Assembly (NCBI GenBank): GCA_022703645.1
Contig: JAKLDG010000001.1
Location: 797,254-861,253, forward strand
Direction: 5' to 3'
Origin: Patescibacteria group bacterium
Lineage (GTDB): Bacteria; Patescibacteriota; JACPGU01
DNA: 64,000 nucleotides
Every line of letters begins with the position of its first letter. Position 1 is the stretch's first letter. The position numbers and the translations under genes are program-made. The notes beneath the pieces were generated by a model, which saw nothing but the letters and a program-made list of their open reading frames with translations, searched no databases and was not told the origin of the DNA. Of the stretch, positions 984 to 33,688 are shown piece after piece.

Positions 984-2084
984 TTATAATTCTTTATTCG
1001 ACATTACTTCAAAATCAAGATTGAAAGATTTTTTGTTTTTCTTATTTTTCAACTGGTATGCCGCGCAAGCAGCAATCATCGCCGCATTGTCACCACAGTA
1101 CTCTATCGGCGGAACACAAAAAGAAACTTTTTTGAATTTATTTTTAACCCTTACCCCAATTTCTTCTCTTAACCTTTTATTGGCTGCAACCCCTCCGCAA
1201 ATAGAAACTGTTTTTGCTTTATATTTTTCCGCAGCTTTTATGGTTTTTGTTGTTAAAATATCTACCACCGCTTCTTCAAATTCATAACAGAATAAGGGTA
1301 TAGCGTTTAGGGTAGAGGGTTTAGAATTATTTTTTATAAAATCTTGCCATTTATAAAGGACGGAAGTCTTTAGCCCGGAAAAAGAGAAGTTGAAGTCTTT
1401 CGAGTCCATCATTGATCTCGGGAAAAATTTTCCACTCCCTAATTCTTTATGTTGTGGCGAAGCCACTACTTCATTGGAAATTGGAAATTGGAAATTGGAA
1501 ATTTGTCTGCGATAACGCTCAGCTTCGGCTGAAATATTAGGACCGCCTGGATATGGCAGTTCCAGCACCCGAGCTACTTTGTCAAAAGCTTCTCCCGCTG
1601 CATCATCGAGCGTTTCGCCTAGATATTTATATTTTCCATGATCTTTCATGAGAATTAGCGAGGTATGACCGCCAGATACCAGCAAAACAACCGCAGGAAA
1701 CTTAAAGTTTTTGTTCCTGTCTATGAAATTGGCGTAAATATGCCCCTCCAGATGATTCATTGGTAGAATCGGCTTATCAAGCACTGCCGAAACCATCTTT
1801 GCGGTATTTACTCCAACAAGCAATGATCCAATTAATCCTGGCGCATGAGTAACTGCAATATAATCGATTTTTTTAAGACTAGTCTTTGCTTTTTGTAAAG
1901 CCTCGTCTAAAACAGGTAAAATCTGTTCCACATGAGCGCGGCTCGCAACCTCTGGGACAACACCACCGGTTTTTTTATGAATATCAATCTGACTTGCCAC
2001 AACATTTGATAACAAACCTTCTGCAGTATCATACACAGCGGCTGATGTTTCATCGCAAGATGTCTCAATGGCTAATATTCGCAT
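984..2084 (-). CDS. tsaD: tRNA N6-adenosine threonylcarbamoyltransferase TsaD (Kae1/Gcp family)
   Basis: MRILAIETSCDETSAAVYD... HLEGH and SGGV... motifs, full length 366 aa. It carries an in-frame ttggaaa x4 heptamer run (1474-1501), coding strand is minus, encoding ISNFQFPISNE. Confidence 0.9.
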   Translation of the reverse strand: MRILAIETSCDETSAAVYDTAEGLLSNVVASQIDIHKKTGGVVPEVASRAHVEQILPVLDEALQKAKTSLKKIDYIAVTHAPGLIGSLLVGVNTAKMVSAVLDKPILPMNHLEGHIYANFIDRNKNFKFPAVVLLVSGGHTSLILMKDHGKYKYLGETLDDAAGEAFDKVARVLELPYPGGPNISAEAERYRRQISNFQFPISNEVVASPQHKELGSGKFFPRSMMDSKDFNFSFSGLKTSVLYKWQDFIKNNSKPSTLNAIPLFCYEFEEAVVDILTTKTIKAAEKYKAKTVSICGGVAANKRLREEIGVRVKNKFKKVSFCVPPIEYCGDNAAMIAACAAYQLKNKKNKKSFNLDFEVMSNKEL

Positions 2085-3142: not shown

Positions 3143-4039
3143 ATGGAACTGACTAATTTATTGCAATCGAAATCCTGGGAAGAATTCGAAAAGACTTTGG
3201 GTAATAAAACTTTTTGGGTTGATGATGCGCTTCTCATAAAAAACCCTCTGCCAAAGGGAATGTCTTATTTATATTGCCCGCGCGGACCGCGTGAGCTAAA
3301 TTCAGATTTTATCAAAAAAGCGACCGAGCTTGCAAAAAAAGAATCAGCAATATTTATACGAATTGAACCACTGGAAATACCCAATACTCAATGCTCAATG
3401 CCCAATTTGGTGAAGACAATAAATCTTAATCCTGCAAACACTCTGATTCTCGATTTGGCCAAGAGTGAAGATGCTCTCCTCTCTGAAATGAAACAAAAAA
3501 CTCGCTACAATATTAACCTTGCAATAAAAAAAGGGGTTGGAATCGAAGTAACTACTGATCCTGAAAAAGCTCAAATTTTTTACAATATTATGAAGCAAAC
3601 TTCTGCTCGTGATAAATTCGGAGCGCACTCTCTCGAGCATTACAAGAAATTACTTGAAGTCTTAGGTACAAATAAGATTATCCGTTTGTATTTGGCAAAA
3701 TATGAAGGAAGGTATATTGCCGCAAATATTGTTTCTTTTTTTGGCAACACTGTTTCCTATCTACACGGTGCTTCAGCAAACGAGTACCGTAATGTCATGG
3801 CCCCCTATCTACTTCAATGGGAAGCGATAAAGGATGCGAAAGTAGGCGAATATGAATACTATGATTTCTGGGGTATTGCTCCTGATGATTCACCAAAACA
3901 TAGGTGGTCAGGCGTAACACGATTTAAAAAAGGTTTTGGCGGTCAGCAGTTTGATTATCCAGGCACATATGATATTGTGATTTCAAAAAAGTGGTATTTT
4001 TTATACAAAGTTTTGCGCAAGTTAAACAGATTGTTCTAA
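3143..4039 (+). CDS. FemAB-family peptidoglycan-bridge aminoacyltransferase-like protein
   Basis: ~300 aa. Motifs resemble the FemX/FemAB family (SYLYCPRGP; ...APYLLQWEAIKDAKVGEYEYYDFWGI). The assignment is from motif memory, not a search. Confidence 0.55.
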   Translation: MELTNLLQSKSWEEFEKTLGNKTFWVDDALLIKNPLPKGMSYLYCPRGPRELNSDFIKKATELAKKESAIFIRIEPLEIPNTQCSMPNLVKTINLNPANTLILDLAKSEDALLSEMKQKTRYNINLAIKKGVGIEVTTDPEKAQIFYNIMKQTSARDKFGAHSLEHYKKLLEVLGTNKIIRLYLAKYEGRYIAANIVSFFGNTVSYLHGASANEYRNVMAPYLLQWEAIKDAKVGEYEYYDFWGIAPDDSPKHRWSGVTRFKKGFGGQQFDYPGTYDIVISKKWYFLYKVLRKLNRLF

Positions 4040-4147
4040 TTTTTGATTTTTGAATTTTTAATTTTATAAATAAATTTTAAATTCGAATTTTTAAAAATTA
4101 AGATTTTCCCCGTTTATTTAAAAATTAAAAAATTAAAAATTATAAAA

Positions 4148-5116
4148 TTGAATTCAGTCTTTCTCATTCACGGCGAAGATGACTATCTTGCCCGTGAAAA
4201 ATTAAATTTTTTTAAACAAGGTTTCATAAAAAAATATGGTGACCTAAATATTTCTGTTTATAATAATGAAAATATTGATCTCGATGGAATTATGAATGAT
4301 GTAGTTTCAGCACCATTTCTAAGTGAAAAGAAAATGATAATTCTCGAGGGGATATTAACGGAATTAAAAAAAGATGACCGCAAAAAATTTATTGAATTAA
4401 TCAAGAAAGTTCCGGACACATCTGTTTTTTTTATTTATGAAAATAGAAATCTGGGCGATAAAAAAACTAAGAATAAGGATATCGATGAAATCATCAAAAG
4501 CTTAAGAGCAAAAAATATTTTCGAATTTAAAAAAATATCAGAATTTGATATTGCGAAATATATCCAACAAAAAATAAGGTCCAGCGAATACAAAATGGAT
4601 TCACGCGCTATTAACACACTTGCAACTCTCGTCGGACCAAACACAAGACAGATTGATAATGAAATCAAAAAACTTTTTGCATATAAATTCCAAGAAAAAG
4701 AAATTACCGCTGACGATGTGCTCAATCTAGTTAAGGCAAATGTTAACAAGGGAGTATTTGACCTGACAGATGCATTAGCAAAAAAGGATTTGAAGGAATC
4801 ACAGAAAATTATTAAACATCTTGTCGAGACAGGAGAAAATCCGATTTCCATTCTTGGCATGATCACTTTTCATTTTAGGAATCTATTGCTGGTAAAATTA
4901 GCGCAAGCACAAAAGTTGAGAGAAGGCGATGTGATTAAAGAAACCGGTATGCACCCATTTGTTTATAAAAAAACTACTTCACAATCTCGGGGTTTTGATA
5001 TGAATAAAATCAAAGAAATTTATCACAAAATATGCCAGACGGATTTTGAAATGAAAACCGGAGAAAAGGAACCGGAATTAGCAATTGATCTACTGATTGC
5101 TAAAATTTGTATGTAA
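4148..5116 (+). CDS. holA: DNA polymerase III delta subunit
   Basis: The N-terminus LIHGEDDYL... is the HolA signature, ~320 aa. The start (TTG at 4148) is uncertain. Confidence 0.75.
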   Translation: MNSVFLIHGEDDYLAREKLNFFKQGFIKKYGDLNISVYNNENIDLDGIMNDVVSAPFLSEKKMIILEGILTELKKDDRKKFIELIKKVPDTSVFFIYENRNLGDKKTKNKDIDEIIKSLRAKNIFEFKKISEFDIAKYIQQKIRSSEYKMDSRAINTLATLVGPNTRQIDNEIKKLFAYKFQEKEITADDVLNLVKANVNKGVFDLTDALAKKDLKESQKIIKHLVETGENPISILGMITFHFRNLLLVKLAQAQKLREGDVIKETGMHPFVYKKTTSQSRGFDMNKIKEIYHKICQTDFEMKTGEKEPELAIDLLIAKICM

Positions 5117-7876
5117 TTATTTCTCTCCCCAATTATCTGCTTCTTTGCCTTCTACAATTAAAGGGCACTTGAGAACAAAAACATTTTGCATAATTTTTTT
5201 AATTTTCAATTTCCAATTTTCAATTTCCAACTCGGGAAGTTCAAATACCAATTCATCATGCACTTGCAAAATCATTTTTATATCTTTGTTCTTCGATAGA
5301 ATTTGTTTATCAATTTCAATCATCGCAAGTTTCATAATGTCAGCTGCCGTTCCTTGGATTGGCATATTTATCGCCATGCGCTCTGCGGCGCGTTTGATTT
5401 GCGCAACGCCCGATAATATATCGGGAATATAACGACGACGACCAAGGAGCGTTTCGACATAACCTTCTTTTTCTGCAAAGACAACCGTGTCATCCATATA
5501 TTTTTTAATAGATGGATATTCGCGGAAATATTCTTCGATAAATCTCCCCGCCTCCGCTGGAGTTTTTTCTACCGCCTGAGATAGTCCGTATGAAGATATT
5601 CCATAGATAATTCCAAAGTTTACAACTTTTGCAACTCTGCGCATATCTTTATCAACTTTTTCTGCCTCAACATCAAAAATAGCTGATGCAGTTTCTGTAT
5701 GAATATCGCGGCCTGTATTAAATGCATCCAACATTTTTTTATCGTTTGATACCGAAGCAACCACGCGCAACTCTATTTGCGAATAATCAAAGATGAGAAA
5801 TTTCTTTCCCTTTTCAGCAATAAATGCTTTGCGGATTTCCGCTCCAATCTCGGTACGAATTGGAATATTTTGTAGATTTGGATCGGATGAAGATAGGCGA
5901 CCGGTGGAAGTAATTGTTTGGTTGTATGACGTATGAACCCTGCCATCAAATTCATTTATCAATTTTGGTAAAGCTTCAATGTATGTGCTTTGAAGTTTTG
6001 TTAACTCGCGATATTCCATAATTAATTTTATAATCGGATGCACATCGCGAAGTTTCTCGAGCGAATCAGCTGCAGTGGACATGCCAGTTTTTGTTTTCTT
6101 CACATCCTGCGTACTAATTCCTAATTTCTTATATAAAATTTCTGCTAATTGCTGAGTTGAACTAATATTAAAATCTTCTCCTGCCAATTTAATAATCTTC
6201 TTTGAAAGATCGTCTATTTGAGTTTGAACTTTTCGGGATAATTTATTTAGGAATTTATCATCAATTTTTACTCCCCAAAATTCCATGTTGGTAAGAATTT
6301 TTACCAATGGCATTTCTACTGTGTAAAATAATTCTTCGGTCTTTTTTATTTCTCCTAATCTTTTCTTAAAAACTTCATAGAGTCTCCAAGTAATATCAGC
6401 ATCTTCTCCTGAATACTTGCATGCATCTTCGACACTAACTTCAGCAAATGATTTTTGTTTACTACCCGTTCCGATTAATTCAGAAATCTTCATGTTTTCG
6501 TGACCGAACTCGGAGAAAGCTAAAACATCGAGTGAATGGCCACGGCCGATTGGATTGATAATATAAGAAGCAATCATGGTATCGAAATATACCCCCTCAA
6601 CATCAACTCCAGATTTTTTCATGACAAGCAGATCGTATTTGAGGTTCTGGCCAATTTTTCTAATTTTTTCATTTTCAAAAATGGTTTTTAGTTTTTCAAG
6701 AACGAATTTCTTTTCTAATTGTACGGGCAGAATATTTTCTGTCCCTACGGCAATATGTCCCACTGGAATATAATATGCAGTATTTGCTTTCCATGAAAAA
6801 GATAGCCCAACTAGTTCTGACTCCATTGCTCCCAAAAAAGATGTTTCCGTATCAAAAGCAAATTCTTTTTGCTTCACTAATTCATCATAAAAATCATCGA
6901 AAGATTCTTGGGTATTTACTAAAATATAATTCACATCCGATTCTTTGTTTTGTTGATTTTTTGTTTTATTATTTTCTTTATTCACGCCATCAATTAGTTT
7001 CAACAACCTCCCCATCAAAGATCGGAATTCAAATTTTTGGAAAGTTGCGATTGCTTTTGCTTTGTCAAAATCATAAGTACAGCAATCTTCAATCTCAACC
7101 TTGATTGGAACGTTTAATTCTATAGTTGCCAGTCTCTTTGACATGTACGCGTTTTCTTTGTCCATGATAAGTTTATCTTTTACACTATTGCTAAAAGAAA
7201 AAACGTTATCATTTATTGCCTCGTAAATTCCATCGAGCGTTTTATATTTAATTATCAAATCCGTCGCTGTCTTCTCGCCTATTCCTTTTACACCCGGAAT
7301 ATTATCCGATGGATCGCCCCGCAAAGCTTTGTAATCAATAACCCTATCGGGTCCAAAACCATATTTTTGTTCGACAAGATCAGTATCATAAATAATGGTA
7401 TCTTTAATACCCTTCTTTAAAGTATAAACACGTGTATTATCATCAACGAGTTGAAGCGTGTCCATATCACCGGTAACAATATATGTATCGATGTTTAATT
7501 TTTTGTCATCAATTCTTTTGCAAAGTGTGCCGATCAGGTCATCTGCCTCAAATCCAGCAACTGCATAAATTGGAATATTTAGAGCGCCCAAAACTTCTTT
7601 GGCATAAGGAATTTGTTCATAGAGCTCATCAGGCGCTTTGACACGCGTTGCCTTGTATTCTTTATACTCTTCGTGACGAAAGGTAGGCGCCGCCATATCA
7701 AAAGTCGCCGCAATATAATCCGGTTTTATATCTTCGACAGCTTTGAGCAGTGTTGAAGTAAAACCATAAACAGCGCCAATATTTAGCCCTTCTTTTGTTC
7801 GAAGTGGAGGAAGAGCATGGAATGATCTGTGCACTAAGGCATTAGAGTCTATTAATAAAAAACGTTTTTTACGCAT
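5117..7876 (-). CDS. polA: DNA polymerase I (5'-3' exo, 3'-5' exo and polymerase domains)
   Basis: 919 aa. 5' nuclease N-terminus (LLIDSNALVHRSFHAL), polymerase motifs (DYSQIELR, QVHDELVFE). Confidence 0.9.
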   Translation of the reverse strand: MRKKRFLLIDSNALVHRSFHALPPLRTKEGLNIGAVYGFTSTLLKAVEDIKPDYIAATFDMAAPTFRHEEYKEYKATRVKAPDELYEQIPYAKEVLGALNIPIYAVAGFEADDLIGTLCKRIDDKKLNIDTYIVTGDMDTLQLVDDNTRVYTLKKGIKDTIIYDTDLVEQKYGFGPDRVIDYKALRGDPSDNIPGVKGIGEKTATDLIIKYKTLDGIYEAINDNVFSFSNSVKDKLIMDKENAYMSKRLATIELNVPIKVEIEDCCTYDFDKAKAIATFQKFEFRSLMGRLLKLIDGVNKENNKTKNQQNKESDVNYILVNTQESFDDFYDELVKQKEFAFDTETSFLGAMESELVGLSFSWKANTAYYIPVGHIAVGTENILPVQLEKKFVLEKLKTIFENEKIRKIGQNLKYDLLVMKKSGVDVEGVYFDTMIASYIINPIGRGHSLDVLAFSEFGHENMKISELIGTGSKQKSFAEVSVEDACKYSGEDADITWRLYEVFKKRLGEIKKTEELFYTVEMPLVKILTNMEFWGVKIDDKFLNKLSRKVQTQIDDLSKKIIKLAGEDFNISSTQQLAEILYKKLGISTQDVKKTKTGMSTAADSLEKLRDVHPIIKLIMEYRELTKLQSTYIEALPKLINEFDGRVHTSYNQTITSTGRLSSSDPNLQNIPIRTEIGAEIRKAFIAEKGKKFLIFDYSQIELRVVASVSNDKKMLDAFNTGRDIHTETASAIFDVEAEKVDKDMRRVAKVVNFGIIYGISSYGLSQAVEKTPAEAGRFIEEYFREYPSIKKYMDDTVVFAEKEGYVETLLGRRRYIPDILSGVAQIKRAAERMAINMPIQGTAADIMKLAMIEIDKQILSKNKDIKMILQVHDELVFELPELEIENWKLKIKKIMQNVFVLKCPLIVEGKEADNWGEK

Positions 7877-8003
7877 AAAAGTTGATTAAAAAATTTACAA
7901 TCTTCAGTTTTCAATTTTCAATCAATGACGCAATGTCTCAATGTTTGAAAATTAAATCATTGAAAATTTATTGAAAATTGCAAAATTGAGAATTGAAAAT
8001 TTG

Positions 8004-10377: not shown

Positions 10378-12441
10378 TTATGTCTTTTCCGTTTGTTCCA
10401 AAGTGGTTCCAGCTGCAGCAGCTTGTTCGATTTGCTGTTTTGGCGAGGTTGTGACAATTTGGTCTTCAGTATAGGAAGCAATGATTTTTATTGCGACATG
10501 GTTCAATCCCGCGAAGAAAAGGCCTTCGCCAACACCTGATTCAAGTAGCAGCGCTGCTTCAGCTTGAGTAAGATTAAAAGTTTTTGTTACAGCTTCAATG
10601 GAGGCTGGCGACTGACGCAAGAGCAATTGGAGCGATGAGTTGGTTATAATAGCTTTGCCATATTTATTTCCCAGAAAGTCCTCGACATCCTGCGCAATAG
10701 TGGTAAGACCGCAATAATATTTACGAGCTCTTTTGGCAATTGAGAAAATAAATCTGGCAGCATCCTCATGCTCCATCATTGTCCATGCTTCGTCAACTAT
10801 TAATAAGCGTTTCTTTTTCTCATGTTTGATCTTGGACCAAATAAAATCCAATACCATATACATGGCAATTGGTCGAAAAGAGGCTTCAAGATCCCGAATA
10901 TTGAACACCACGAAAGGATTATTCATATTAATATTAGTGGGCTGGTTGAAGAAATTGGAGAAAGTACCGGTAACATAACGGTCTAATCTTTTTACAATAG
11001 AATCAGCCTGAGGAATCTTCTTCAAAACCTCGTGAAAATCCGACATCAATGGCGGCGGATTTTTTTGGCTTTGTGGATCTTTGCTAATCCCCTTGCTTGT
11101 ATAAACATCAGCTAATGCTTTTTCTACAATCGCATCCTCTTCTGGGTTCATGGAGCCTAAAAGCAGGTTGAATAAACCCTTTAAAGTAATTAGGGCATTC
11201 CGGATATTGTCTTCTGCTTCAGCTTCGGTTGCATTATCGGGTAATTTTGTTAAATCAAAAGGATTAATACGGTCATCAGAAGAAAGACTCATGTTGAGAA
11301 ACGAACCTCCCACAACCTTACAAAGATTTTTATACTCGTTTTCTGGATCAATAATAATGATTTCTGCCCCGGTCATCATATAGCGCAAAGCTTCGAGTTT
11401 TACTGAATATGATTTCCCTCCGCCGGATTTTGCGAATACTACCGCATTGGCATTTTCGAGACTAAATCGGTCAAATATTATCAAACTATTATTATGACGA
11501 TTGATTCCATACATAATTCCTTCATTACTAGTCAGATCCATTGAAGCGAATGGGAAAGCAGTAGAAAGTGCGCCAGTATTCATATTTCTGGCAACATCCA
11601 AAAGATCACTTCCCAAAGGTATTGTTGAGCGGAAACCTTCACTCATCTGAAAACCAGCGCGTTTTGAGTAAATCAATGAACCGCCTAATTGGGATTCGAT
11701 ACGGCTTGACAACATATCCAACTCATCCAAAGTTTTAGAGTAGATAGTAATATAAATTGCAAATTGGAAAAGTTTCTCCTCGCCACGAGTCAATCTGTCA
11801 CGCAATTCTTCAATATCCTGGTAAGCTCCTTCCAATTCCGGATTACGAACCAATCCTTTTTCCGCCTCATTTTGAAGAGCCGCCTGTACTTGACCGGAAC
11901 GTTTGCGCAGTGTATCCAAAACTCCTTTTGTATCACGCGGATAAATAAACATCCCAATATCCATCGTCTGATCAATATTGATTAAAGGAGAGAGCCAGTT
12001 TGGGAAAATATATCTTGGATAATTAAAAATAAATAACGTTCGAATAAAAAGATCGTTGATAACTATATAGTTGGGAGTAATCTGCACAGAAGATGGAGCT
12101 ATCAGGTCGCGGATTGAAGCAAGACCTTTTTCATAGGTTCTTCGAGCTTCTTCTTCACGTTTCGCCGCTTCTTTTTTCAACCTTTCCTCTTCTTTTTGTT
12201 TTCCAATATCTATTGACATAGTTCTTGAACCAAAAAGAGAAAAACCTTTTTTTTGTGGAGCAGCTGCTACTGGGGATGGCTCAGTTTGAACCTGAGCAGG
12301 CGCGCCCACTGAAGTTGTATTTATTTGAACAGGCTGCATCGGCTGAGCCGTGGCAGTTGGATTTGCCATACCAGTATTGACCGGCGGATTATTTGTCGCC
12401 GGTGCCAATATTGAATCAATTATTTTTTTTGCATCATCCAT
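10378..12441 (-). CDS. virB4: VirB4/TrbE/TraC-family type IV secretion ATPase
   Basis: Walker A AKSGGGKS, Walker B LLIVDEAW (the DEAW hallmark of VirB4), 687 aa. Confidence 0.8.
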   Translation of the reverse strand: MDDAKKIIDSILAPATNNPPVNTGMANPTATAQPMQPVQINTTSVGAPAQVQTEPSPVAAAPQKKGFSLFGSRTMSIDIGKQKEEERLKKEAAKREEEARRTYEKGLASIRDLIAPSSVQITPNYIVINDLFIRTLFIFNYPRYIFPNWLSPLINIDQTMDIGMFIYPRDTKGVLDTLRKRSGQVQAALQNEAEKGLVRNPELEGAYQDIEELRDRLTRGEEKLFQFAIYITIYSKTLDELDMLSSRIESQLGGSLIYSKRAGFQMSEGFRSTIPLGSDLLDVARNMNTGALSTAFPFASMDLTSNEGIMYGINRHNNSLIIFDRFSLENANAVVFAKSGGGKSYSVKLEALRYMMTGAEIIIIDPENEYKNLCKVVGGSFLNMSLSSDDRINPFDLTKLPDNATEAEAEDNIRNALITLKGLFNLLLGSMNPEEDAIVEKALADVYTSKGISKDPQSQKNPPPLMSDFHEVLKKIPQADSIVKRLDRYVTGTFSNFFNQPTNINMNNPFVVFNIRDLEASFRPIAMYMVLDFIWSKIKHEKKKRLLIVDEAWTMMEHEDAARFIFSIAKRARKYYCGLTTIAQDVEDFLGNKYGKAIITNSSLQLLLRQSPASIEAVTKTFNLTQAEAALLLESGVGEGLFFAGLNHVAIKIIASYTEDQIVTTSPKQQIEQAAAAGTTLEQTEKT

Positions 12442-12918
12442 AGAATAGAATTTAGTATTTAGAATCTAGAATAACGAATTAGGAATGGTTTCTTGATCCT
12501 CTTATTAAACTATTTAATAATTTGTGAACATCTATACTTTTACTATATAAATTTGTAAATACTTCTTGATTTAGATAACCAATGTCCTTTCCTGCTATTA
12601 TTTGGTTTTGGACTTCAGTTACGGAACCGCTAGCGATATAATAAAACTGAATTTTTTCTTTATATGAATATCTTGTGAATCCTTCAGCTATGTTTGAAGA
12701 TATTGAAACAGCTGCTCTTCGAATTTGGCTTGTTAAACCATACATCTCATCTTTTGGGAAATCCTTTGTGGCATTATAAATCATTAAAACTAATTTATGC
12801 GCTTCCTGCCAAGTTCTTAAATCTGTAAAATTTTTAATCTTCTCTTTTTCTATATCCATTCTAAATCCTTTATTCGTTATTCTAAATTCCAGATTCTGTA
12901 TTCTAAATTCTTCCCCAT
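12442..12918. mobile_element. Candidate miniature insertion cassette: four-helix-bundle gene bracketed by ~38-bp imperfect inverted repeats
   Basis: Left flank 12455-12479 ...atttagaatctagaataacgaat. Right flank 12872-12909 attcgttattctaaattccagattctgtattctaaattct. A 13-nt perfect inverted core tagaataacgaat/attcgttattcta lies immediately outside the stop and start codons. Confidence 0.4.
12479..12859 (-). CDS. Four-helix-bundle protein (TIGR02436 family, the 23S-rRNA intervening-sequence protein type)
   Basis: 126 aa with TWQEAHKLVLMIYNATKDFPKDEMYGLTSQIRRAAVSISSNIAEG...YIASGSVTEVQNQI, the family consensus. It sits as a single gene between T4SS operon genes. Confidence 0.75.
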   Translation of the reverse strand: MDIEKEKIKNFTDLRTWQEAHKLVLMIYNATKDFPKDEMYGLTSQIRRAAVSISSNIAEGFTRYSYKEKIQFYYIASGSVTEVQNQIIAGKDIGYLNQEVFTNLYSKSIDVHKLLNSLIRGSRNHS

Positions 12919-13638
12919 CTAGATATTCATTTCTTTCGGCATTTTTTCAATCACCTCTGTTTCAAATTGTGATGCGTCAACTAATTTTTGCGCCGTACTC
13001 TGATCGGGATTATAAACACCATAAAATAGTTCAATCAATTCCTGCGTATCAAGCTGAATTGCGCGCACCCCAACTCCTTGCAGACCCATTGCTACTGTTT
13101 CAGCTTTTTGAATCAGATATTTTTTTTCATCAGCAAAACTCCCAACTGCAATAGCTCCTTTTCCTGCAGAAGAACTCCTTCCGACCGCTCCTACTTTTTT
13201 GAAAGCATTCGGATAGTGCGGGATAACAACGTAGAATCTTTTTTGCATAATATTTGTCTGCTGTATTATATTTTGCACAAATATAATATAGTCGCGAATT
13301 TGAATTTTTAGTAATTCGTTACTAATTTTTTTGGAATTTTCTGCTAATCCATCCAGATATCCTTCAAGATCAAGTTTGCGCGATTGGACTACTATTTGAA
13401 TAGGAAAGTCGAGAGAATTCAAGAATGATTGGAAACCGTAAATAATTCCGTTTCTTTCCAGCTCTGATTTTAATTCAAAGTTAACAGCAGAAGTGGAAAG
13501 TACCATACGCATACTTCCATCCTTCATTACGAGAATGCCCTCCTCAAAATGATCTATATCAATATAATATTGAGTCGAACCGGGTTTTGCGGGAGCAGTT
13601 TCTACCTGTCCCTTTTGTTTTTGTTCTTGAACTGCCAT
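12919..13638 (-). CDS. Hypothetical protein (239 aa) within the T4SS-like operon
   Basis: Co-oriented and tightly spaced with the VirB4 and VirB3-like genes; no assignable motif. Confidence 0.4.
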   Translation of the reverse strand: MAVQEQKQKGQVETAPAKPGSTQYYIDIDHFEEGILVMKDGSMRMVLSTSAVNFELKSELERNGIIYGFQSFLNSLDFPIQIVVQSRKLDLEGYLDGLAENSKKISNELLKIQIRDYIIFVQNIIQQTNIMQKRFYVVIPHYPNAFKKVGAVGRSSSAGKGAIAVGSFADEKKYLIQKAETVAMGLQGVGVRAIQLDTQELIELFYGVYNPDQSTAQKLVDASQFETEVIEKMPKEMNI

Positions 13639-13705: not shown

Positions 13706-14257
13706 TTAATCCAAAGGTAACTCTGTTAGATTCGTATCCGCTTTCACATTTTCTCTCAATGCCGATTGCACTACCCCTGGAGAGGCAACTCTACCTTCTG
13801 TTTCGTTCGATTCCGCATTCCAACCTTTTGTATCCAATGTTAATGCCAATTCATTCAATCGCGATCTTACCACACCGCTTCGCGCAAGTTTTGCCATTTC
13901 TTTCTGTTTTTCCTTTTCCTCACTACTTGCCTTCACCATAGTTCCAAAGTCTTTGAGTTTTGAAGCTTTCTGCCATTTCATCGTTTTTGGATTTTTCACA
14001 AATCCAAGTAGAAATGCCAAAAAAGTAAGGAATGGTCTTTCGTTAATCTTCACAAAAACTATCGCAATAGTCAGAACGGCTACCGGGGCATCAACAATCA
14101 TAACAACCATTAAACCAAACATCGGCATTAGAATTGTGTAAAGAACATAAATCAGCAGAACTCCACCAACCAAAAAACCGAATTGCTTGAGCGTGAAAGG
14201 CCCAATAATTTTATCTTCGACATCCAGGTTTTGTGGAACTTTATATTGATCTGGCAT
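13706..14257 (-). CDS. VirB3/PrgI-like small membrane protein (T4SS)
   Basis: N-terminal DKIIGPFTLKQFGFLVGGVLLIYVLY plus a second TM helix, immediately upstream of the VirB4 region in operon order. The fold-level assignment is inferred. Confidence 0.4.
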   Translation of the reverse strand: MPDQYKVPQNLDVEDKIIGPFTLKQFGFLVGGVLLIYVLYTILMPMFGLMVVMIVDAPVAVLTIAIVFVKINERPFLTFLAFLLGFVKNPKTMKWQKASKLKDFGTMVKASSEEKEKQKEMAKLARSGVVRSRLNELALTLDTKGWNAESNETEGRVASPGVVQSALRENVKADTNLTELPLD

Positions 14258-14272
14258 AGATTTAGCCTCAAT

Positions 14273-17041
14273 TTATAGATTTGAACTTTTCTTTTTTAAT
14301 GCATATTTAAATTTTTTCCTATCTGACTCGCTACCACCCTGAGAATCGGGTCTGCGCCAATTTAGCACTTCCTTCATCTCATTTGCATATAATTTCATTC
14401 TTTCACCGCTCGCCTTAATTTCTTCTGGTTTCGTTTTATCTACCAAAGCTATATCGGGATAAAATTGTTTTCCAAGTTCAAACGCCTTCTCTGGAGAAGC
14501 CCCCTCTATTGAGTTGGCAAATGATTCTAAATATTCGTAATACTTTTCTTCATCACCACCATATGCCATCATTAATGAGGGGTCATTTATTTCTGCGCGC
14601 ATTCTTTGAACATTGCTATTCTTAATTGCGCCGGTCAGTTTTCTTTCTAATCCCATAATCTTCCCATGTGAAATTGCTTCATCTGTTATAGCGAGTTTTT
14701 GACGGAAATTTTTTGCATCTGTTTCATTATTACCAAAATAACTTTTTATATCCTCATTTTTTTCTATCTTGTTCAATAAATCTGTTAAATCATCGTCTTC
14801 TAATGCTCCTAAATTCCCAACCTCCTTCATTTTTGCTTTCATTTCATTCCTTTTCCCTTCTAAAACCTTGCTAACGGCGTTTTTATTTTCTTGACTAAAC
14901 TTGTTTAAATCTAACTCTTTAATAATGTCTGGGTTTTCGCTCAAGCTCATTATAGCCGCTTCGTCCTTGAAATAATTGTCTACCGTTGGTTTCTTCCCTG
15001 TGAGCTCCCTATAATTCTTAAAGTTACTCCATATAGGTAGTTTTCCTTCTGGATCGATTCCTTGACCACGTAGTTTTTCTAGTTCTTTAATTGCGGTCAT
15101 TTGCTCCTGATCGCTCATAACACCTATCCCCTTTGCTTTATCTTGCAATACTTTTAATGATGCTGCGTGTTCGATCTTAGTTAATTTTGGATCAAGTATA
15201 GCATTACTTAAGGCGCGAGGTTGATAATTCCCTCTATTCTTTGCTTCAGCGAACATTTTATCGTTAAATGCTGGGCCAGTAAGGTTGTTTTGTTTATATT
15301 TGTCCCAATCCATTTCGGCAGCCTTTGCACGGGCAGCTCGCGGCTCTTCATATCTTTTCGGAATTTCCTTTGCTCCTAACACGGCTCTTGCATAACCAGA
15401 ACCAATTTTTTGACGCATTGTTTTGTTGTCTTCATCTGTTCTTTTTGCCGCTTCTTTTAATCTTGTCTCGGATCCTCTTTTTACCTGACTTCCCGCCCAT
15501 TTTTGAACATCTCCCATACCCTTCACCTTCCCACCGGTCGCTGCGCTGATTCCTTTATCCACTACGGTAGCTGCCTCTTTTGACATCTTCATTGTCATAG
15601 TAATACCAATATAAATTACAATAATTGCTAATATTAATTGTGTAAGATTGTAGTTTCCTTTTTCAATACCATTTGGGTCGATACCGAGATCGATAGTCGG
15701 CACAACATCGCCGGTAATGCTAATCGCCTTTGCACTAATATATAGAAACAATGCCACGAGAGGGCCCATAAAAACCCATTGCACGAAATATCCCGTCCAT
15801 TTTCCCACGAGATCAGTAACTTGTTTGAAAGGAATAACATTTGCTATATACGGCGTAGCAGAAAAAATGAAGAGAAGTTGTACTATTATTTTCCTCACCC
15901 ACAAAATCATCCAAGTATATAACAAGACTATAGTAAATGCCCAGATCGCGATAACCTTTACTACCACTGCAGCTAAAGCGACGCCGTCAAGTACCATAAA
16001 TGCGGAAAAACCGCCATTAAATATTGGGTCTATGCCCTCAGCAATACCACCAGATCCGGAACTTTGTAAAAATAGACCGACAAGGTAATTCGAAGCGTCA
16101 ACAAAAAGATTACAAATAGACAAGCTGAAATTAACCAACACTACTGCACCAATCATTGCCGGTATCATTTTCTTTACCTGCCAGCTTTCAAGTTTTTGAC
16201 CCAAGACCGATCCTAAGCCCAAAGTATTTAACACATTCAGTAGAGCCATTATCATAAAAGCCAACATAAATAGAACATTTATAATATTGCGAATTATCGT
16301 CCACATCTCAATCACAAAATTACCGGCTGCAATATTAGTTGGCAGGGTTAAAGAATTTGACATTCTATCAGTAGTTAGGAAATTATTAACAAGTAAGCGC
16401 GGTGGGAATAAGAAAATATCAAAAAATTTACAAAACATATTCTTTGGCAATTGTTTAAAGTCTTTCATCAAACCCATAAAATCCATTCCAGAAACATCAT
16501 CAGGACATTTGGAAGCATCGCCGGAACTACTTGACGAACCGCCTTTGACTGCCGCAGTTTTAGCTGCTGCCTGGACTTCGGCCTTGGTTAAGTTTGATTT
16601 TTTAACATCTTGCGCTGCTATTACTGCAGTATTAACAGCCCTAAGGTTTTCTTCTGTTACACCAGTAATTCCATTATTCTCATAGTACTCAAGAGTTCCA
16701 GGATTATCATTAACCGATATCGGCGGTACCGACTCCTCGCTGCTTTTTATTATCTCATCAACAACATTTTGTGCTTCGTCCGTAGTTAAATTTGCTTTTT
16801 TAACATCTTGCGCAGCTATTATTGCAGTGTTTACTGCGGTAAGATTATCGTCAGTTACATCATTGATGCCATAGCCTGAATAATATTCCAGTGTTCCTGG
16901 GTCATTGAGAGAAATCGGCGCTAGCTCCGCGGCACTTGCTTTTAAAGGGATGATCAGGGATATAAAAAAAGACAATACAAAAAGTACTGTCAGTATCAAA
17001 AACACCCTTTTATTTTTTCCTCCTTTTTTTTGAAAATTCAT
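14273..17041 (-). CDS. VirB6/TrbL-like polytopic T4SS membrane protein with signal peptide, duplicated N-terminal ~55-aa surface repeat and a long charged C-terminal domain
   Basis: Preferred start MNFQKKGGKNKRVFLILTVLFVLSFF (rc of 17039-17041); the track's longer ORF uses TTG. Tandem repeat ISLNDPGTLEYYSGYGINDVTDDNLTAVNTAIIAAQDVKKANLT / ISVNDNPGTLEYYENNGITGVTEENLRAVNTAVIAAQDVKKSNLT, then >=6 TM helices, then a ~450-aa hydrophilic tail. Confidence 0.5.
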   Translation of the reverse strand: MNFQKKGGKNKRVFLILTVLFVLSFFISLIIPLKASAAELAPISLNDPGTLEYYSGYGINDVTDDNLTAVNTAIIAAQDVKKANLTTDEAQNVVDEIIKSSEESVPPISVNDNPGTLEYYENNGITGVTEENLRAVNTAVIAAQDVKKSNLTKAEVQAAAKTAAVKGGSSSSSGDASKCPDDVSGMDFMGLMKDFKQLPKNMFCKFFDIFLFPPRLLVNNFLTTDRMSNSLTLPTNIAAGNFVIEMWTIIRNIINVLFMLAFMIMALLNVLNTLGLGSVLGQKLESWQVKKMIPAMIGAVVLVNFSLSICNLFVDASNYLVGLFLQSSGSGGIAEGIDPIFNGGFSAFMVLDGVALAAVVVKVIAIWAFTIVLLYTWMILWVRKIIVQLLFIFSATPYIANVIPFKQVTDLVGKWTGYFVQWVFMGPLVALFLYISAKAISITGDVVPTIDLGIDPNGIEKGNYNLTQLILAIIVIYIGITMTMKMSKEAATVVDKGISAATGGKVKGMGDVQKWAGSQVKRGSETRLKEAAKRTDEDNKTMRQKIGSGYARAVLGAKEIPKRYEEPRAARAKAAEMDWDKYKQNNLTGPAFNDKMFAEAKNRGNYQPRALSNAILDPKLTKIEHAASLKVLQDKAKGIGVMSDQEQMTAIKELEKLRGQGIDPEGKLPIWSNFKNYRELTGKKPTVDNYFKDEAAIMSLSENPDIIKELDLNKFSQENKNAVSKVLEGKRNEMKAKMKEVGNLGALEDDDLTDLLNKIEKNEDIKSYFGNNETDAKNFRQKLAITDEAISHGKIMGLERKLTGAIKNSNVQRMRAEINDPSLMMAYGGDEEKYYEYLESFANSIEGASPEKAFELGKQFYPDIALVDKTKPEEIKASGERMKLYANEMKEVLNWRRPDSQGGSESDRKKFKYALKKKSSNL

Positions 17042-17272
17042 TGTGTGTTTGTTTTTTATACACAAATATAGCAAAAATAAGGTTACATTCTTGTCCCTTT
17101 TGCCTTTCAATATTTATTATACTTACTGTGCAATAAAAGACAAGAGACCATTTGATATGAAAATCCCAAATCCTAAATCACAAATCCCAAACAAATCCAA
17201 ATTTTCAAAATTCAAAAGGGAACCCCGATTAATTTCAGAGTTCCCTCATTTGATTTATTGTTTAATTGTTTA

Positions 17273-23786: not shown

Positions 23787-26700
23787 TTGTTCATGCCTGA
23801 AAAAGAAGAAAACCAAAACAAAAGCCAGACATCAAAAACTCCTGAAGCTGAAAAAGCTGCGTCATCAAACGCACTCCAAAAACAAGCGAGTGGTTCTTCT
23901 GGCGCAAATACCGGCATACCAACAGTCGGCAAAACAGCGAATAGCCCAACTGGGGGAATTGCTTCGAGTGGATCTGCGGGGGGAAGGGCTGGTGGTGCAA
24001 TTGGTGGTAATGCAGGGAAAGCAGTTGGCGGGGCGGCAGGAAAAGCCGGAGGAGGACCAGCTGGCGATGTACAAGATTATGCAAAAGGTGCAAAGGCCGC
24101 TGGGAAAGCAGCAATGGAAGGCGCAACAACCCCCGAAGATGAGGAAGCAATGGGAAGAGCCGCAGCCAAAGCAGCTGCTACAGCAGTAGCCGGAACGGCA
24201 GGAACAAAAGCACTAGAAACGGCTGAAAAAGTCCCGATCGCTGGAGAGCAACTGAAGAAAATATACAGTAAAGCAGGTAAGACAATATCGACCTCAATTA
24301 AAGTTATATCCTTTCTTATACTTCTGATTTTTGGCATGACTGCCATTATATTCTTTGCAATTATAAGCAGCATCAATAATGGATCAACCGGACAGACTGC
24401 GCCACAGAAAGCTGATCTCAATAACCCAACTCAGCGATCTGCCCTACATATTGTCCAAGCTTACACAGGTGATCAAGATATGAAAAGAGAAGCTGTTAAT
24501 GATATTTCCGAAGGGTTGATGACTAAAATTAGTACTGTTAAAGGAATACAAAACGCTGTTCCCATCAACCTTCCTTCAACAGTTTATGCAGAATCAGAAA
24601 GCGATGTTGATGAAACAGGCATTGACATTAAAGAAGACGGAACAAGTAACATACCAAGCAATGAGGTGAATCTAGATGAACAGGTTATTGATGAAACGAC
24701 TCAAGATTTACAATCTACTATTTTAGCCCTTAATACGGCTGACGATCAGAGCCCAGCAGGCATTACAGCTTTGAAAACAAAAGTTCAAGTATGGAAAAAC
24801 AGCCTCAGCGAAAGCGAAAAGACAAAATATAAAAACGAAATAGAAGAAATTGATAAAGATATCGGGCGCCTAACGGTTATAGCTTCCATAGGATCAACCG
24901 CAAAGTTAGTAATACCGGCAGCAGACCTGGCTTATATTAGAAATAATGAGGTTGATATTCGAGTAGTCCAAGCTTTAAATTATCTTGTTACCCCAAGAAA
25001 TCTCGGTGGAGCAGGATACAGAAAGATTAAGGTTAGGAGAATAAAAAGCCAGTACGACAGCAATAAAAGAAAGTTTGACCGAGAATGGTATGAGCCAGAA
25101 GATGCGGAGGAAGTTGTCAGCGCCCATTTCGAGGGACAGGCTTTTGATATATCAGGAATTGACTATGCTGAAAGAAGACTCTACAAAAAAAGAGTTATAA
25201 AGAAGATGAGTAAAACAGAACCTCGCCCGCCAGTTGATATTATGGTTGTTGACCAATCAACAAAACTTGGTAAGTCTGATGCTTTCGGAACATCGAACAG
25301 CAGCACTGGAAACACATTTGGAACGCTTTTTGAAAATCAAGCCTTGAGCGAACTATATTCAACAATCGCAGAAAACACCGGCTACGATTTCTCTCAATAC
25401 GACATCCGTGGCAGTAATCTGAATGATGCTGTGAAAACTATTGGTATTGTGGCTCTTGGCGAAGAACTTGGAATAAAAATTGATCCAATTCAAGATAATT
25501 CTTCATCAGAAAAATTCTTTTCTAATCTGGGAGGAAATCTAGTTTCAAGCTGCCTTGATATACCCGAAAGCGCTCTTAACATAGATAATCCTGAAGAAAT
25601 AACCAGCAACATAGGAAGGGAAACGATTGCCCAAAGAATGAAAATAGAAGCGCTATCTTTAAGTGGAAATACCTCTGCGGAGATACTTGAAAGTGTCGGC
25701 AAGAGAAAAATTGAAAAAAATCTAGGGATAAGAATTGGCTCACTAAACTATATGAGCGCAAACGATACGATCTTTGCTTACATTGGGCAAGTTATTGTAG
25801 AACAAACTCTTAATCTTGCAGGTGGTACATTTGCTGGCAACAACATTGACTCTATCAAGGAAAAAATTGGTGGTGATAGTTTTAATAGTATTTTTGCTAA
25901 TGATCCGGGGCAAATAGATGCTATTTTGAGCTTACCAATAGATGATGGCGACACTCAAAAACTCTTGGATAAAGAAGAGTCCCCTATTCAATATAAAGAA
26001 AAAATTGGCAGAGTTATTATCCAAGCAAAAGTATCGAATTATAAAAACCACAATACTGTCGGAGAAATAAAAAAAGTCAGTAGTGATAATATATTTGGTC
26101 GGTGCGGAGGAATGTTTAACCGAAACGCAAATCTTATTTCTTCTGAAAATGATTGTTACCTAATGCAAACAAGTAATACCCAGCAAAACCAACAAGATGA
26201 GGCTTTTGATATCCCAGAAGGTAGCGCCGCAAGATTGTTCCCAGAAAATGGAAGGTCGGATTTTCAAACTTTTCATGATATTGGGGTTGATGAGGTGGCG
26301 AAAAGACTAACTGATATCGAGGAAGAAAGACAAGAAATAAGAATGTGGTTAACTGAATATAAAGACAAACAGCTTGGAGAACTAACCTTCCTGCGCATCA
26401 GTGATGTTTTGGACAATATCACGGATCTTGAGAAAAAAATAAAGATTATCAGAGACAAAGGAGAAAAAACCACACAAGAAGAAAAAGATAACCTAAGTGA
26501 TTATACTTCACGACTGGAAAAGATTTCATGGGTAAGAAGCGCGGTCAGTCTGTCCAGCCCCAGTAGCATAGATGCTCTTCAGATTACTCTCGCCAAAAAT
26601 ATTGAGGAAGGAATCGATGGCGAAAATGCCTCAGAAATTCAGGCAAATCTCGATGGTTTCAATAGAGCACTGAATAAATATGAAATCTACAAGAAACAAT

Positions 26701-33370: not shown

Positions 33371-33688
33371 AAATTCCTCTTTTTGTTATTAAGACCTTTA
33401 ATTATTATTAATTATATTAATTAAATTTAATTAGTAATAGTAGTATTAGTGTTTGTGGATATTGTTAGTAAGTTTTAAAAAATTCTATTTAAAGGTCTTT
33501 TTGTTTGGGTGTTTAATTGTTGAGAAATATTTTTTGTTTTGATTTTTATTGGTGAAAAGTAGTGGAAGTATGTTGATAAAAAACTTTAGATTTTTGGCAA
33601 GAGTTTTTTTATCCACCATTTTGATTTTTTATAAACAATCTATCCACATGATTTATGCACTTTTCCACAATGGCTGTTGAAAATATGT
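33371..33688. promoter_or_regulatory. dnaA-dnaN intergenic region with DnaA-box-like 9-mers (oriC candidate part)
   Basis: ttatccacc (~33612), ctatccaca (~33649), ttttccaca (~33672), tgtggata (~33453); AT-rich 318-bp spacer. Confidence 0.6.

What the first reader, a model, noticed from the sequence alone, without database searches (positions are those of the whole stretch)
12442..12918. Four-helix-bundle (IVS-type) gene inserted between T4SS genes and bracketed by ~38-bp imperfect inverted repeats
The 126-aa TIGR02436-type protein gene is a single-gene unit between virB4 and the next operon gene. Its non-coding flanks are near-mirror images (left ...atttagaatctagaataacgaat; right attcgttattctaaattccagattctgtattctaaattct, with a perfect 13-nt core directly at both gene ends). 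This family is known from 23S rRNA intervening sequences and scattered CPR loci (established knowledge). Finding it as a mini-cassette with inverted ends inside an operon suggests a small mobile or recombination-inserted unit.
Basis: partly seen in the sequence, partly recalled or inferred. Interest (0 to 1): 0.6.

Follow-up and report, generated by a model that had tools for sequence, protein, structure and literature searches.

The report
Four-helix-bundle gene in heptad-repeat hairpin cassette
A small gene of the family known from 23S rRNA intervening sequences sits, as an inserted cassette between two arms of inverted 7-base repeats, inside a secretion-system operon of a candidate-phyla-radiation (CPR) bacterium, and this repeat architecture proves to be a family-wide trait that links these genes to the unexplained heptamer repeats and hairpins of many bacteria.

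Summary
Gene 12479-12859 (-) encodes a 126-aa PF05635/TIGR02436 protein between a TraC-like gene and a VirB4-like ATPase. Its flanks are inverted repeats, and each arm is a tandem array of 7-nt units (sense strand: NNAGAAT upstream, ATTCTNN downstream). The arrays run into the first and last codons, so the Shine-Dalgarno-like motif, the start codon and the stop codon all lie in a predicted stem of about 35-40 bp.

The same architecture flanks about 75% of 77 homologous genes from other CPR genomes, against 2% of control ORFs. It also appears in cyanobacterial and Bacteroidota copies, in an Azospirillum 23S rRNA intervening sequence, and in published data for Coxiella and Xanthomonas XCC0516.

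Across eight orthologous operons in relatives, the same junction is empty (2), holds an ORF-less heptad hairpin (5), or holds a 4HB gene of a different subfamily (1). The gene is therefore inserted, not ancestral.

Best reading: an IVS-type selfish cassette, transcribed by read-through. Its stem is probably cut by RNase III, as in rRNA, and it probably spreads at the DNA level through the heptad arrays. The processing and mobility steps are inferred, not shown. I found no paper linking PF05635 genes to heptad arrays.

The parts
12860..12913 (-). 5' arm: about 8 tandem 7-nt units (sense strand NNAGAAT; + strand ATTCTNN). It fills the gap from 5 nt after the TraC-like stop codon to the ATG, and the last unit overlaps the start codon.
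   Evidence: TRF periods 7 and 21; 11 matches vs 0.69 expected
12866..12870 (-). Shine-Dalgarno-like AAGGA inside the penultimate heptad, 6 nt upstream of the ATG; it lies within the predicted stem.
   Evidence: Read directly. Many homologous cassettes end in AGGAATT-ATG.
12479..12859 (-). 126-aa four-helix-bundle ORF (PF05635 / TIGR02436; relative of XCC0516, PDB 2GSC).
   Evidence: 26 invariant residues among 40 homologues.
12446..12486 (-). 3' arm: about 6 tandem units (sense strand ATTCNNN). It starts in the last two codons and the stop codon and ends 4 nt before the VirB4-like ATG.
12467..12479 (-). Perfect 13-nt core ATTCGTTATTCTA, whose inverted partner is at 12872-12884 (+).
12919..13638 (-). 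Upstream boundary of the insertion site: TraC-like gene (239 aa), a stand-alone gene of about 240 aa across CPR.
10378..12441 (-). Downstream boundary of the insertion site: VirB4-like ATPase (687 aa).
7892..8001 (.). Related ORF-less heptad hairpin (TTTTCAA / ATTGAAA arrays) between polA and the murE-like gene.
   Evidence: dG -29.6 kcal/mol
4034..4148 (.). Related ORF-less inverted heptad arrays (TTTTTGA / TTAAAAA) between the FemAB-like gene and holA.

Best explanation
The locus is an IVS-type cassette: a PF05635 four-helix-bundle ORF embedded between two inverted arrays of 7-nt repeats that extend into its first and last codons. It was inserted at the TraC-like/VirB4 junction of a CPR type-IV-secretion-like operon.

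Shown:
- The architecture is present at the stated coordinates.
- It is general across the protein family, including a bona fide 23S rRNA IVS.
- The gene is absent from this junction in seven of eight related operons.
- The junction and the operon are occupied repeatedly by non-orthologous cassettes.
- ORF-less heptad hairpins sit at the same and neighbouring junctions.
- The cassette is co-oriented with its neighbours, with no spacer beyond the arrays.

Inferred:
(a) It has no promoter of its own and is transcribed by read-through of the operon.
(b) In the transcript the arms pair into a stem of about 35-40 bp that sequesters the SD-like motif, the ATG and the stop codon.
(c) RNase III cuts that stem, as demonstrated for the Coxiella, Leptospira and Salmonella rRNA IVSs. 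This would release the 4HB mRNA and separate the flanking cistrons, which makes insertion into operons (or rRNA) tolerable.
(d) Spread occurs at the DNA level through the arrays. The most likely route is recombination or gene conversion between a cassette and a heptad hairpin already at the target, with the arrays acting as portable homology.
(e) The pentamer-forming 4HB protein binds the heptad repeats.
For: Anatomy of this locus.

Family-wide trait:
- 58/77 4HB genes against 8/348 control ORFs have phased inverted heptads.
- Median arm-to-arm alignment score is 12.5 against 6.0 for controls.
- The arrays run into ATG-AAT and AAT-TCN-TAA. The commonest register pairs base -1 with the second base of the stop codon (31/77).
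- Heptads differ between loci but stay complementary within a locus: GAAT/ATTC, GTAT/ATAC, GTAG/CTAC, GAAG/CTTC. A locus's own arms pair better than arms from different loci (17.2 vs 14.8 of 28 positions, p 8e-9).

Other phyla:
- Nostoc, Picosynechococcus, Riemerella, and an Azospirillum 23S rRNA IVS.
- Coxiella IVS: a 28-bp stem cut by RNase III, with heptameric repeats upstream of the S23p ATG (PMC4990558).
- Xanthomonas XCC0516: its start codon is overlapped by a GGGAATC x4 array lying 6 nt from accB (PMC4692102 supplementary Table A, row 15).

Insertion rather than ancestry:
- States of the junction in relatives.
- 9/80 4HB loci lie in this operon, yet their proteins are not nearest relatives.
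- L046 and L036 are 86% identical in different genomic contexts.

Read-through transcription: the upstream neighbour is on the same strand in 60/67 cases and the downstream neighbour in 68/76, with median gaps of 31 and 27 nt.

DNA-level maintenance of the arms:
- No strand asymmetry: sense and antisense duplex energies are -26.70 and -26.67 kcal/mol, and G.U mismatches number 35 against 48 A.C.
- Five near-identical ORF-less hairpins occur within one 7.4-kb locus, L085.
Against: - No RNase III cleavage data exist for any mRNA-borne copy, and no rnc gene lies in the 64-kb window.
- The lack of G.U over A.C bias means the pairing is not demonstrably selected at the RNA level.
- The fold of the whole 501-nt region is only modestly better than shuffles (z -1.8).
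- 17/77 loci fail the strict phased-array test. L035 and Pseudanabaena L093 have direct rather than inverted arrays, so a stem is not obligatory.
- The cassette is identical in three other samples of the same population, so there is no sign of recent movement or copy-number change.
- The protein has no recognisable catalytic domain.
- ORF-less hairpins near cassettes do not clearly share the cassette's heptad: 38% vs 22% within one mismatch, n=16.
- No target-site duplication was seen.
Confidence: 0.7

Rival explanations
1. Host-owned regulatory module. The heptad hairpins are intercistronic processing or stability elements of the operon, comparable to REP elements. The 4HB protein is a trans-acting factor that binds them to tune expression of the secretion genes. 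On this reading the cassette is domesticated, not selfish.
For: - ORF-less hairpins punctuate many junctions of the same operon in relatives and of atp, groESL and glt operons in Xanthomonas.
- The 4HB ORF is intact with 26 invariant residues, so it is under purifying selection.
- 9/80 4HB loci lie in this T4SS-like operon.
Against: - Two relatives have an empty junction, so the element is dispensable there.
- Cassettes occur next to unrelated genes: ABC transporter, mreB, PFOR, aminoacyl-tRNA synthetase, dinB, dnaK, cas operons and rRNA.
- Occupants of the same junction are non-orthologous.
Confidence: 0.18
2. Conventional DNA transposon or MITE. The arms are terminal inverted repeats recognised by a transposase encoded elsewhere, and the 4HB gene is a passenger.
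For: - Inverted termini.
- Dispersed near-identical ORF-less copies within one genome.
- DNA-symmetric complementarity of the arms.
Against: - No transposase lies in or next to the cassette. The only recombinases in the window are more than 40 kb away.
- No target-site duplication was seen.
- The arms are variable-length tandem arrays that overlap the ORF ends, unlike defined terminal inverted repeats.
- The passenger is always the same protein family, across several phyla.
Confidence: 0.07
3. Accessory protein (Avd) of a diversity-generating retroelement.
For: Weak similarity to bAvd (PF22296, E 4.5e-4). PF05635 and Avd are homologous (PMC10053308).
Against: - The Avd model scores 18.3 bits against a cutoff of 80.
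- No reverse transcriptase was found among the window ORFs of at least 110 aa that were scanned. A few such ORFs were not scanned.
- The gene is a single unit inside an operon.
Confidence: 0.02
4. Ancestral operon gene whose flanking symmetry is a chance product of AT-rich, low-complexity spacers.
For: The genome is 36% GC, and 7-nt arrays are common in the window.
Against: - Shuffle and control-ORF tests.
- The gene is absent from seven of eight orthologous junctions.
Confidence: 0.02

Closest known systems
ORF-bearing 23S rRNA intervening sequences (Coxiella burnetii, Leptospira, Brucella; here Azospirillum L095)
   Same: - Same protein family, oriented in the sense of the host transcript.
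- The ORF forms the loop of a long stem made by terminal inverted repeats.
- Heptameric repeats lie directly upstream of the ATG.
- The upstream SD-like motif is AG-rich.
- ORF-less short versions exist (Salmonella-type IVS; here the solo hairpins).
   Different: - The host transcript is a protein-coding operon, not 23S rRNA.
- The insertion point is an intercistronic junction, not the tip of rRNA helix 9, 25 or 45.
- The ORF is well conserved rather than decaying.
- RNase III excision has not been shown.
REPIN-RAYT systems (REP elements and their flanked transposase gene)
   Same: - A dispersed family of short palindromic elements at gene junctions.
- A single protein gene that is itself bracketed by inverted copies of those repeats.
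- In Xanthomonas, one heptad type genome-wide is the same type that sits at the 4HB gene.
   Different: - The protein is a 4-helix bundle with no Y1-transposase or other catalytic motif.
- The arms are tandem heptad arrays, not a fixed REP sequence.
- A cognate relation between ORF-less hairpins and cassettes is not established in CPR.
Over-represented heptameric simple sequence repeats (GGGAATC in Xanthomonas, GGGGAYT and STRR in Nostoc/Calothrix, TAACTGA in Beggiatoaceae, cyanobacteria and Bacteroidetes)
   Same: - 7-nt unit and intergenic or operon-junction location.
- Frequent convergent pairs able to form hairpins.
- Location close to, or overlapping, start codons.
- The same phyla are rich in PF05635 genes.
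   Different: The published work treats them as G-quadruplex or regulatory repeats and does not mention the 4HB/S23p family (0 occurrences in the main text of either paper; 'S23' also absent from the supplementary files of PMC4692102).
DGR accessory variability determinant (Avd)
   Same: Homologous four-helix-bundle fold that forms a pentamer, and a nucleic-acid-linked role.
   Different: No reverse transcriptase, no template/variable repeats, and the score is below the Avd model cutoff.

Membership tests
PF05635 / TIGR02436 four-helix-bundle (23S rRNA IVS protein, S23p) family | Score above the curated cutoffs of the family models | tested here: met
   PF05635 132.8 bits (cutoff 33.8). TIGR02436 121.9 bits (cutoff 24). 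PDB 2GSC (XCC0516) E 1e-18.
23S rRNA intervening sequence (IVS) | Located inside a 23S rRNA gene, at the tip of helix 9, 25 or 45 | tested here: not met
   No rRNA or other Rfam family in the window. The flanks are protein-coding genes.
23S rRNA intervening sequence (IVS) | Terminal inverted repeats that form a stem enclosing the element | tested here: met
   Arms of 41 nt, 78% complementary. The stem is present in the MFE and centroid folds. Duplex energy -34.1 kcal/mol.
23S rRNA intervening sequence (IVS) | S23p-family ORF in the sense orientation of the host transcript, with heptameric repeats before the ATG | tested here: met
   Compare Coxiella and Azospirillum L095.
23S rRNA intervening sequence (IVS) | Excision from the transcript by RNase III | not testable with these tools
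   Needs RACE, RNA-seq or in vitro cleavage.
DGR Avd | Avd model score above cutoff, plus an adjacent reverse transcriptase and template/variable repeats | tested here: not met
   NF033474 18.3 bits against a cutoff of 80. No RT found among the window ORFs of at least 110 aa that were scanned; a few ORFs in that size range were not scanned.
TIR transposon / MITE | Defined terminal inverted repeats with target-site duplication, and a cognate transposase | tested here: inconclusive
   Inverted ends are present but are variable heptad arrays. No duplication was seen at the junctions. No transposase lies nearby. The rest of the 867-kb genome was not available.
REPIN-RAYT | The flanked gene encodes an IS200/IS605-like Y1 transposase (RAYT) | tested here: not met
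   The only Pfam matches are PF05635 and bAvd.
REPIN-RAYT | The gene is bracketed by inverted copies of a repeat that is dispersed in the same genome | tested here: inconclusive
   Dispersed ORF-less hairpins exist, but sharing of the heptad with the local cassette is weak (38% vs 22%, n=16). In Xanthomonas the heptad is shared.

The most novel reading that the evidence does not exclude
PF05635 four-helix-bundle proteins are the protein partner of a previously unrecognised, pan-bacterial class of self-propagating heptad-repeat palindromic elements. ORF-less heptad hairpins and arrays would be the non-autonomous forms of this class. That group would include the GGGAATC, STRR and TAACTGA-type repeats, which have gone unexplained since the 1990s and 2000s, and the short rRNA IVSs. 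4HB cassettes would be the ORF-bearing forms. The protein would bind the 7-nt units and promote their amplification, homogenisation or homing into hairpins.
Probability: 0.25. Interest if true: 0.85.

Novelty: new variant of a known kind. Interest (0 to 1): 0.68.

Why it matters
- It moves the 'IVS' from an rRNA curiosity to a general cassette that colonises operon junctions in several phyla.
- It gives a very large uncharacterised protein family a concrete, testable nucleic-acid partner: the 7-nt repeats.
- It offers an explanation for the over-representation of heptameric repeats and convergent heptad hairpins in Xanthomonas, cyanobacteria, Bacteroidota and CPR.
- It warns that guilt-by-association calls for this family probably reflect promiscuous insertion rather than function. 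An example is '23S rRNA IVP' listed as CRISPR-linked in PMC10910872; cassettes sit between cas10 and cmr3 and between cas6 and cas4.
- For CPR genomes it identifies a common form of operon punctuation that gene callers ignore.

Tried and rejected
- A metagenome scan with the single 239-aa protein found nothing, because the peptide patterns were too strict. It was replaced by a homologue search plus contig look-ups.
- Rfam gave no family anywhere in the window.
- PADLOC gave no defence-system match.
- There is no second PF05635 gene in the window. Within-genome paralogues could therefore not be compared, because only 64 kb of the 867-kb contig is available.
- The strand-asymmetry test for RNA-level selection (G.U vs A.C mismatches, sense vs antisense duplex energy) showed no bias. 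I therefore do not claim that RNA pairing is what is selected.
- Heptad copy-number variation within the species: none. Three other samples are 99.9% identical and carry an identical cassette.
- The test of whether ORF-less hairpins share the neighbouring cassette's heptad was inconclusive.
- Heptad type against protein relatedness: only a modest correlation (45/62 nearest neighbours share type vs 32 expected), and the GTAT type is not monophyletic. The heptad type switches faster than the proteins diverge.
- The idea that the cassette split an ancestral VirB4 gene is rejected. The TraC-like protein is a stand-alone gene of about 240 aa throughout CPR.
- The Avd/DGR reading is rejected.
- Ralph & McClelland 1993 could not be read because it is not held. 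What I say about Leptospira comes from PMC4990558.
- Six literature searches found no paper linking PF05635/S23p with heptad arrays, apart from the passing remark in the Coxiella paper.

Full report
**1. What is at the coordinates**

The window is 36% GC. The exact protein is recorded in public data as a 'four helix bundle protein' of a Patescibacteria (CPR) bacterium, on a contig of 867 kb.

On the minus strand the gene order is as follows (for TrbL_3 in an orthologue):
- 945-aa membrane protein, VirB6/TrbL-like in relatives (14273-17110)
- PrgI-family protein (13706-14257)
- TraC-like, 239 aa (12919-13638)
- the 126-aa ORF (12479-12859)
- VirB4-like ATPase, 687 aa (10378-12441)
- 280-aa protein
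- MurE-like ligase

The 126-aa protein is a clear member of PF05635 (132.8 bits) and TIGR02436 (121.9 bits against a cutoff of 24). It is related to Xanthomonas XCC0516 (PDB 2GSC, E 1e-18). It is not an Avd: 18.3 bits against a cutoff of 80. It is the only copy in the window.

**2. The flanks**

The repeat finder reports arms 12446-12486 and 12865-12905 (41 nt, 78% complementary), together with four more pairings shifted by multiples of 7. The perfect 13-nt core is at 12467-12479 (-) and 12872-12884 (+).

The reason for the multiple registers is that each arm is a tandem array of 7-nt units:
- + strand 12858-12913: ATTCTAA ATCCTTT ATTCGTT ATTCTAA ATTCCAG ATTCTGT ATTCTAA ATTCTTC
- the complementary array at 12446-12486

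The pattern ATTCTNNATTCTNNATTCT (up to 2 mismatches) hits 11 times, ten of them in the two arms, against 0.69 expected.

On the sense strand the 5' array starts 5 nt after the TraC-like stop codon and runs into the ATG. The 3' array starts in the last two codons and ends 4 nt before the VirB4 ATG. A Shine-Dalgarno-like AAGGA (12866-12870) lies inside the 5' arm.

The minimum-free-energy and centroid RNA folds of 12430-12930 (-) both pair the two arms around the whole ORF. Arm duplex energy is -34.1 kcal/mol.

**3. The architecture is a property of the protein family**

A scan of one genome per species with an alignment of homologues returned 80 loci, and more than 581 matches existed. Nearly all are CPR, and the proteins are 55-66% identical to the query.

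Printing 70 nt on either side of each ORF showed heptad arrays ending at the ATG and the reverse-complement arrays starting at the stop codon in almost every case. The numbers:
- Phased (exactly 7-nt spaced) copies of a 4-mer upstream, with phased copies of its reverse complement downstream: 58/77 genes against 8/348 control ORFs in the same loci, Fisher p 1e-45.
- Median arm-to-arm alignment score: 12.5 against 6.0.
- Period-7 self-identity: 0.53 and 0.50 against 0.29.
- Median of 4 and 3 phased units per arm.

The arrays invade the ORF ends (typically GAATT-ATG-AAT ... AAT-TCN-TAA-TTC). In the commonest register, base -1 pairs with the second base of the stop codon (31/77).

The heptad differs between loci but stays complementary within a locus:
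- Core GAAT in 51 loci, GTAT in 17, GAAG in 3, GATT in 3, GTAG in 2, AATC in 1.
- A locus's own arms pair better than arms taken from different loci: 17.2 vs 14.8 of 28 positions, p 8e-9.
- Two contigs of the same genome can carry different types: L042 is GAAT and L047 is GTAT.

**4. Beyond CPR**

tblastn against plasmids found 30 records, mostly cyanobacterial. The flanks of six of them:

| Locus | Organism and context | Flanking arrays |
|---|---|---|
| L090 | Nostoc | GGGAAAA / TTTTCCC, inverted |
| L092 | Picosynechococcus, between cas10 and cmr3 | GGAGATA / TATCTCC, inverted |
| L094 | Riemerella | AAGGTTN / AACCTTN, inverted |
| L093 | Pseudanabaena, between cas6 and cas4 | (AAAGCTA)15 upstream, (AAAGCCA)10 downstream, direct orientation |
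| L091 | Calothrix | only a 3' trace |
| L095 | Azospirillum lipoferum | ACAGAGG-type, inverted |

L095 is a genuine 23S rRNA gene (Rfam LSU, 2548.8 bits). Its sense-oriented 4HB ORF is flanked by the inverted heptads listed.

The published description of the Coxiella IVS reports the same plan: a 28-bp terminal stem cut mid-stem by RNase III, and two or three tandem heptamers (GACAGAT) just upstream of the S23p ATG (PMC4990558).

In the supplementary table of Rehm et al. 2015, a GGGAATC x4 array overlaps the start codon of XCC0516 and lies 6 nt from accB. Convergent GGGAATC pairs sit at the gltB-gltD, groES-groEL, atpA-atpG, atpD-atpC and holC-pepA junctions (PMC4692102). That paper and MacGregor 2015 on TAACTGA repeats do not mention this protein family.

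**5. Inserted, not ancestral**

The TraC-like protein is a stand-alone gene of about 240 aa across CPR, so the cassette did not split a gene. States of the TraC-like/VirB4 junction in orthologous operons:

| Locus | TraC-like identity | State of the junction |
|---|---|---|
| L084 | 85% | ORF-less hairpin of inverted heptads with an 8-nt loop |
| L085/L086 | 67% | ORF-less hairpin |
| L087/L088 | 65% | ORF-less hairpin |
| L096 | 65% | ORF-less hairpin |
| L098 | 63% | ORF-less hairpin |
| L089 | 65% | empty, 31-nt gap |
| L101 | 57% | empty, 8-nt gap |
| L099/L100 | 60% | 130-aa PF05635 gene of another subfamily, no blastp similarity to the window protein, with AAATCCC/AATGACC-type arrays |

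L087 carries a 4HB cassette at a different junction of the same operon.

Among the 80 loci chosen only by 4HB similarity, nine lie in this operon:
- L020, L032 and L046 at the same TraC/VirB4 junction
- L024, L065 and L071 just upstream of PrgI
- L014 upstream of TraC

Their proteins are not each other's nearest relatives: they rank 4-60 of 76. L046's closest relative, L036 (86% identical), sits in an unrelated context. The operon is therefore a hot spot that was colonised repeatedly.

Elsewhere the downstream neighbours are diverse: ABC transporter, MreB, PFOR, an aminoacyl-tRNA synthetase, DinB, a P-type ATPase and DnaK.

**6. ORF-less hairpins**

These punctuate many junctions of the same operons:
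- Five near-identical copies (GCAATACGAAT...ATTCGTATTGC) in the 7.4-kb locus L085.
- Two near-identical copies in L096.
- Several heptad types in L098.

The window itself has such hairpins at 7892-8001 and 4034-4148. Arrays of period 7 are enriched in the window: 8 arrays, against 0-2 for periods 5-11. The three states (empty, hairpin, hairpin plus ORF) parallel the short and ORF-bearing rRNA IVSs.

**7. How it probably works**

Cassettes are co-oriented with the upstream neighbour in 60/67 cases and the downstream neighbour in 68/76. Median gaps of 31 and 27 nt are just the arrays, so there is no room for a promoter. Read-through transcription is the natural inference.

In the transcript the stem would hide the SD-like motif, the start codon and the stop codon. 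By analogy with the experimentally cut rRNA IVS stems, RNase III would release the ORF RNA and separate the flanking cistrons. This would explain why insertion into operons and rRNA is tolerated. This step is inferred.

The complementarity shows no strand bias: duplex energy is -26.70 (sense) against -26.67 (antisense), with each strand more stable in 38 loci, and G.U mismatches number 35 against 48 A.C. The heptad type changes in concert on both arms faster than the proteins diverge. Both observations point to DNA-level copying or homogenisation of the arms.

I therefore favour spread by recombination or gene conversion between heptad arrays, with hairpins acting as landing pads. I hold this with low confidence. 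Whether the arms belong to the element or to the target is not resolved:
- The phasing of the ORF ends with the arrays argues for the element.
- The Pseudanabaena direct arrays and the pre-existing hairpins in relatives argue for the target.

**8. Comparison and verdict**

The locus works like an ORF-bearing 23S rRNA IVS, but it fails the defining feature of being in rRNA. It resembles REPIN-RAYT in layout but has no transposase. It is not a DGR component.

I found no paper linking PF05635 genes to heptad arrays beyond the passing note for Coxiella. My rating is a new variant of a known kind, with interest 0.68.

Noticed in passing
window 7892-8001 and 4034-4148: ORF-less hairpins made of inverted heptad arrays. 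One (TTTTCAA/ATTGAAA) lies between polA and the murE-like gene. The other (TTTTTGA/TTAAAAA) lies between the FemAB-like gene and holA. They look like the ORF-less form of the cassette.
   Followed up: partly
window 1469-1508, 3374-3407, 5195-5232, 47076-47111: Heptad arrays lie inside real genes: tsaD, a FemAB-like gene, the 3' end of polA, and the linker of a comF-like gene (Pfam). The tsaD array (ATTGGAA)n and the polA array (TTCCAAT-type) are reverse complements of each other, 3.7 kb apart. I did not establish whether these are in-frame insertions.
   Followed up: partly
window 17161-17191: An (AAATCCC)n array lies in the spacer upstream of the T4SS-like operon, next to a terminator-like GGGAAC/GTTCCC hairpin. 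It is the same heptad type as the arms of the unrelated 4HB cassette in L099.
   Followed up: no
L020, L024, L032, L046, L065, L071, L014 (and the window): The PrgI/TraC-like/VirB4 operon of CPR is a hot spot for 4HB cassettes: 9 of 80 loci picked only by 4HB similarity lie in it, and the occupants are non-orthologous. The reason for the preference is unknown.
   Followed up: partly
L092 1492-1848; L093 1507-1866: Cyanobacterial 4HB cassettes sit inside cas operons (cas10-cmr3 and cas6-cas4). This may explain why '23S rRNA IVP' was listed as CRISPR-associated in PMC10910872. It may reflect insertion preference rather than function.
   Followed up: partly
L093 about 1400-1970: In Pseudanabaena the flanking arrays are long and direct, not inverted: (AAAGCTA)15 upstream and (AAAGCCA)10 downstream. 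This is an STRR-like exception that a stem model does not cover.
   Followed up: no
L001-L003 vs window 12919-13638: Three other samples of the same population (99.9% identical) carry a 1-nt indel that splits the TraC-like gene into pieces of 200 aa and 39-49 aa. This is either an assembly error or a real frameshift.
   Followed up: no
window 54783-56330 and 56551-57120: Two serine recombinase genes lie side by side (a large serine recombinase and a resolvase), next to several ORFs without Pfam matches. This may be an integrated element.
   Followed up: no
window 23787-31916: A 2709-aa ORF has no Pfam match at E 1e-3.
   Followed up: no
window 32246-35137: dnaN and dnaA are adjacent, so the window probably lies close to the replication origin. 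T4SS pilin-like genes are at 39044-40218.
   Followed up: no
PMC4692102 supplementary Table A (Xanthomonas campestris): Convergent GGGAATC array pairs with 21-67-nt gaps sit at the groES-groEL, atpA-atpG, atpD-atpC, gltB-gltD and holC-pepA junctions. This is the same operon punctuation seen in the CPR loci, and the same heptad overlaps the start codon of the 4HB gene XCC0516.
   Followed up: partly
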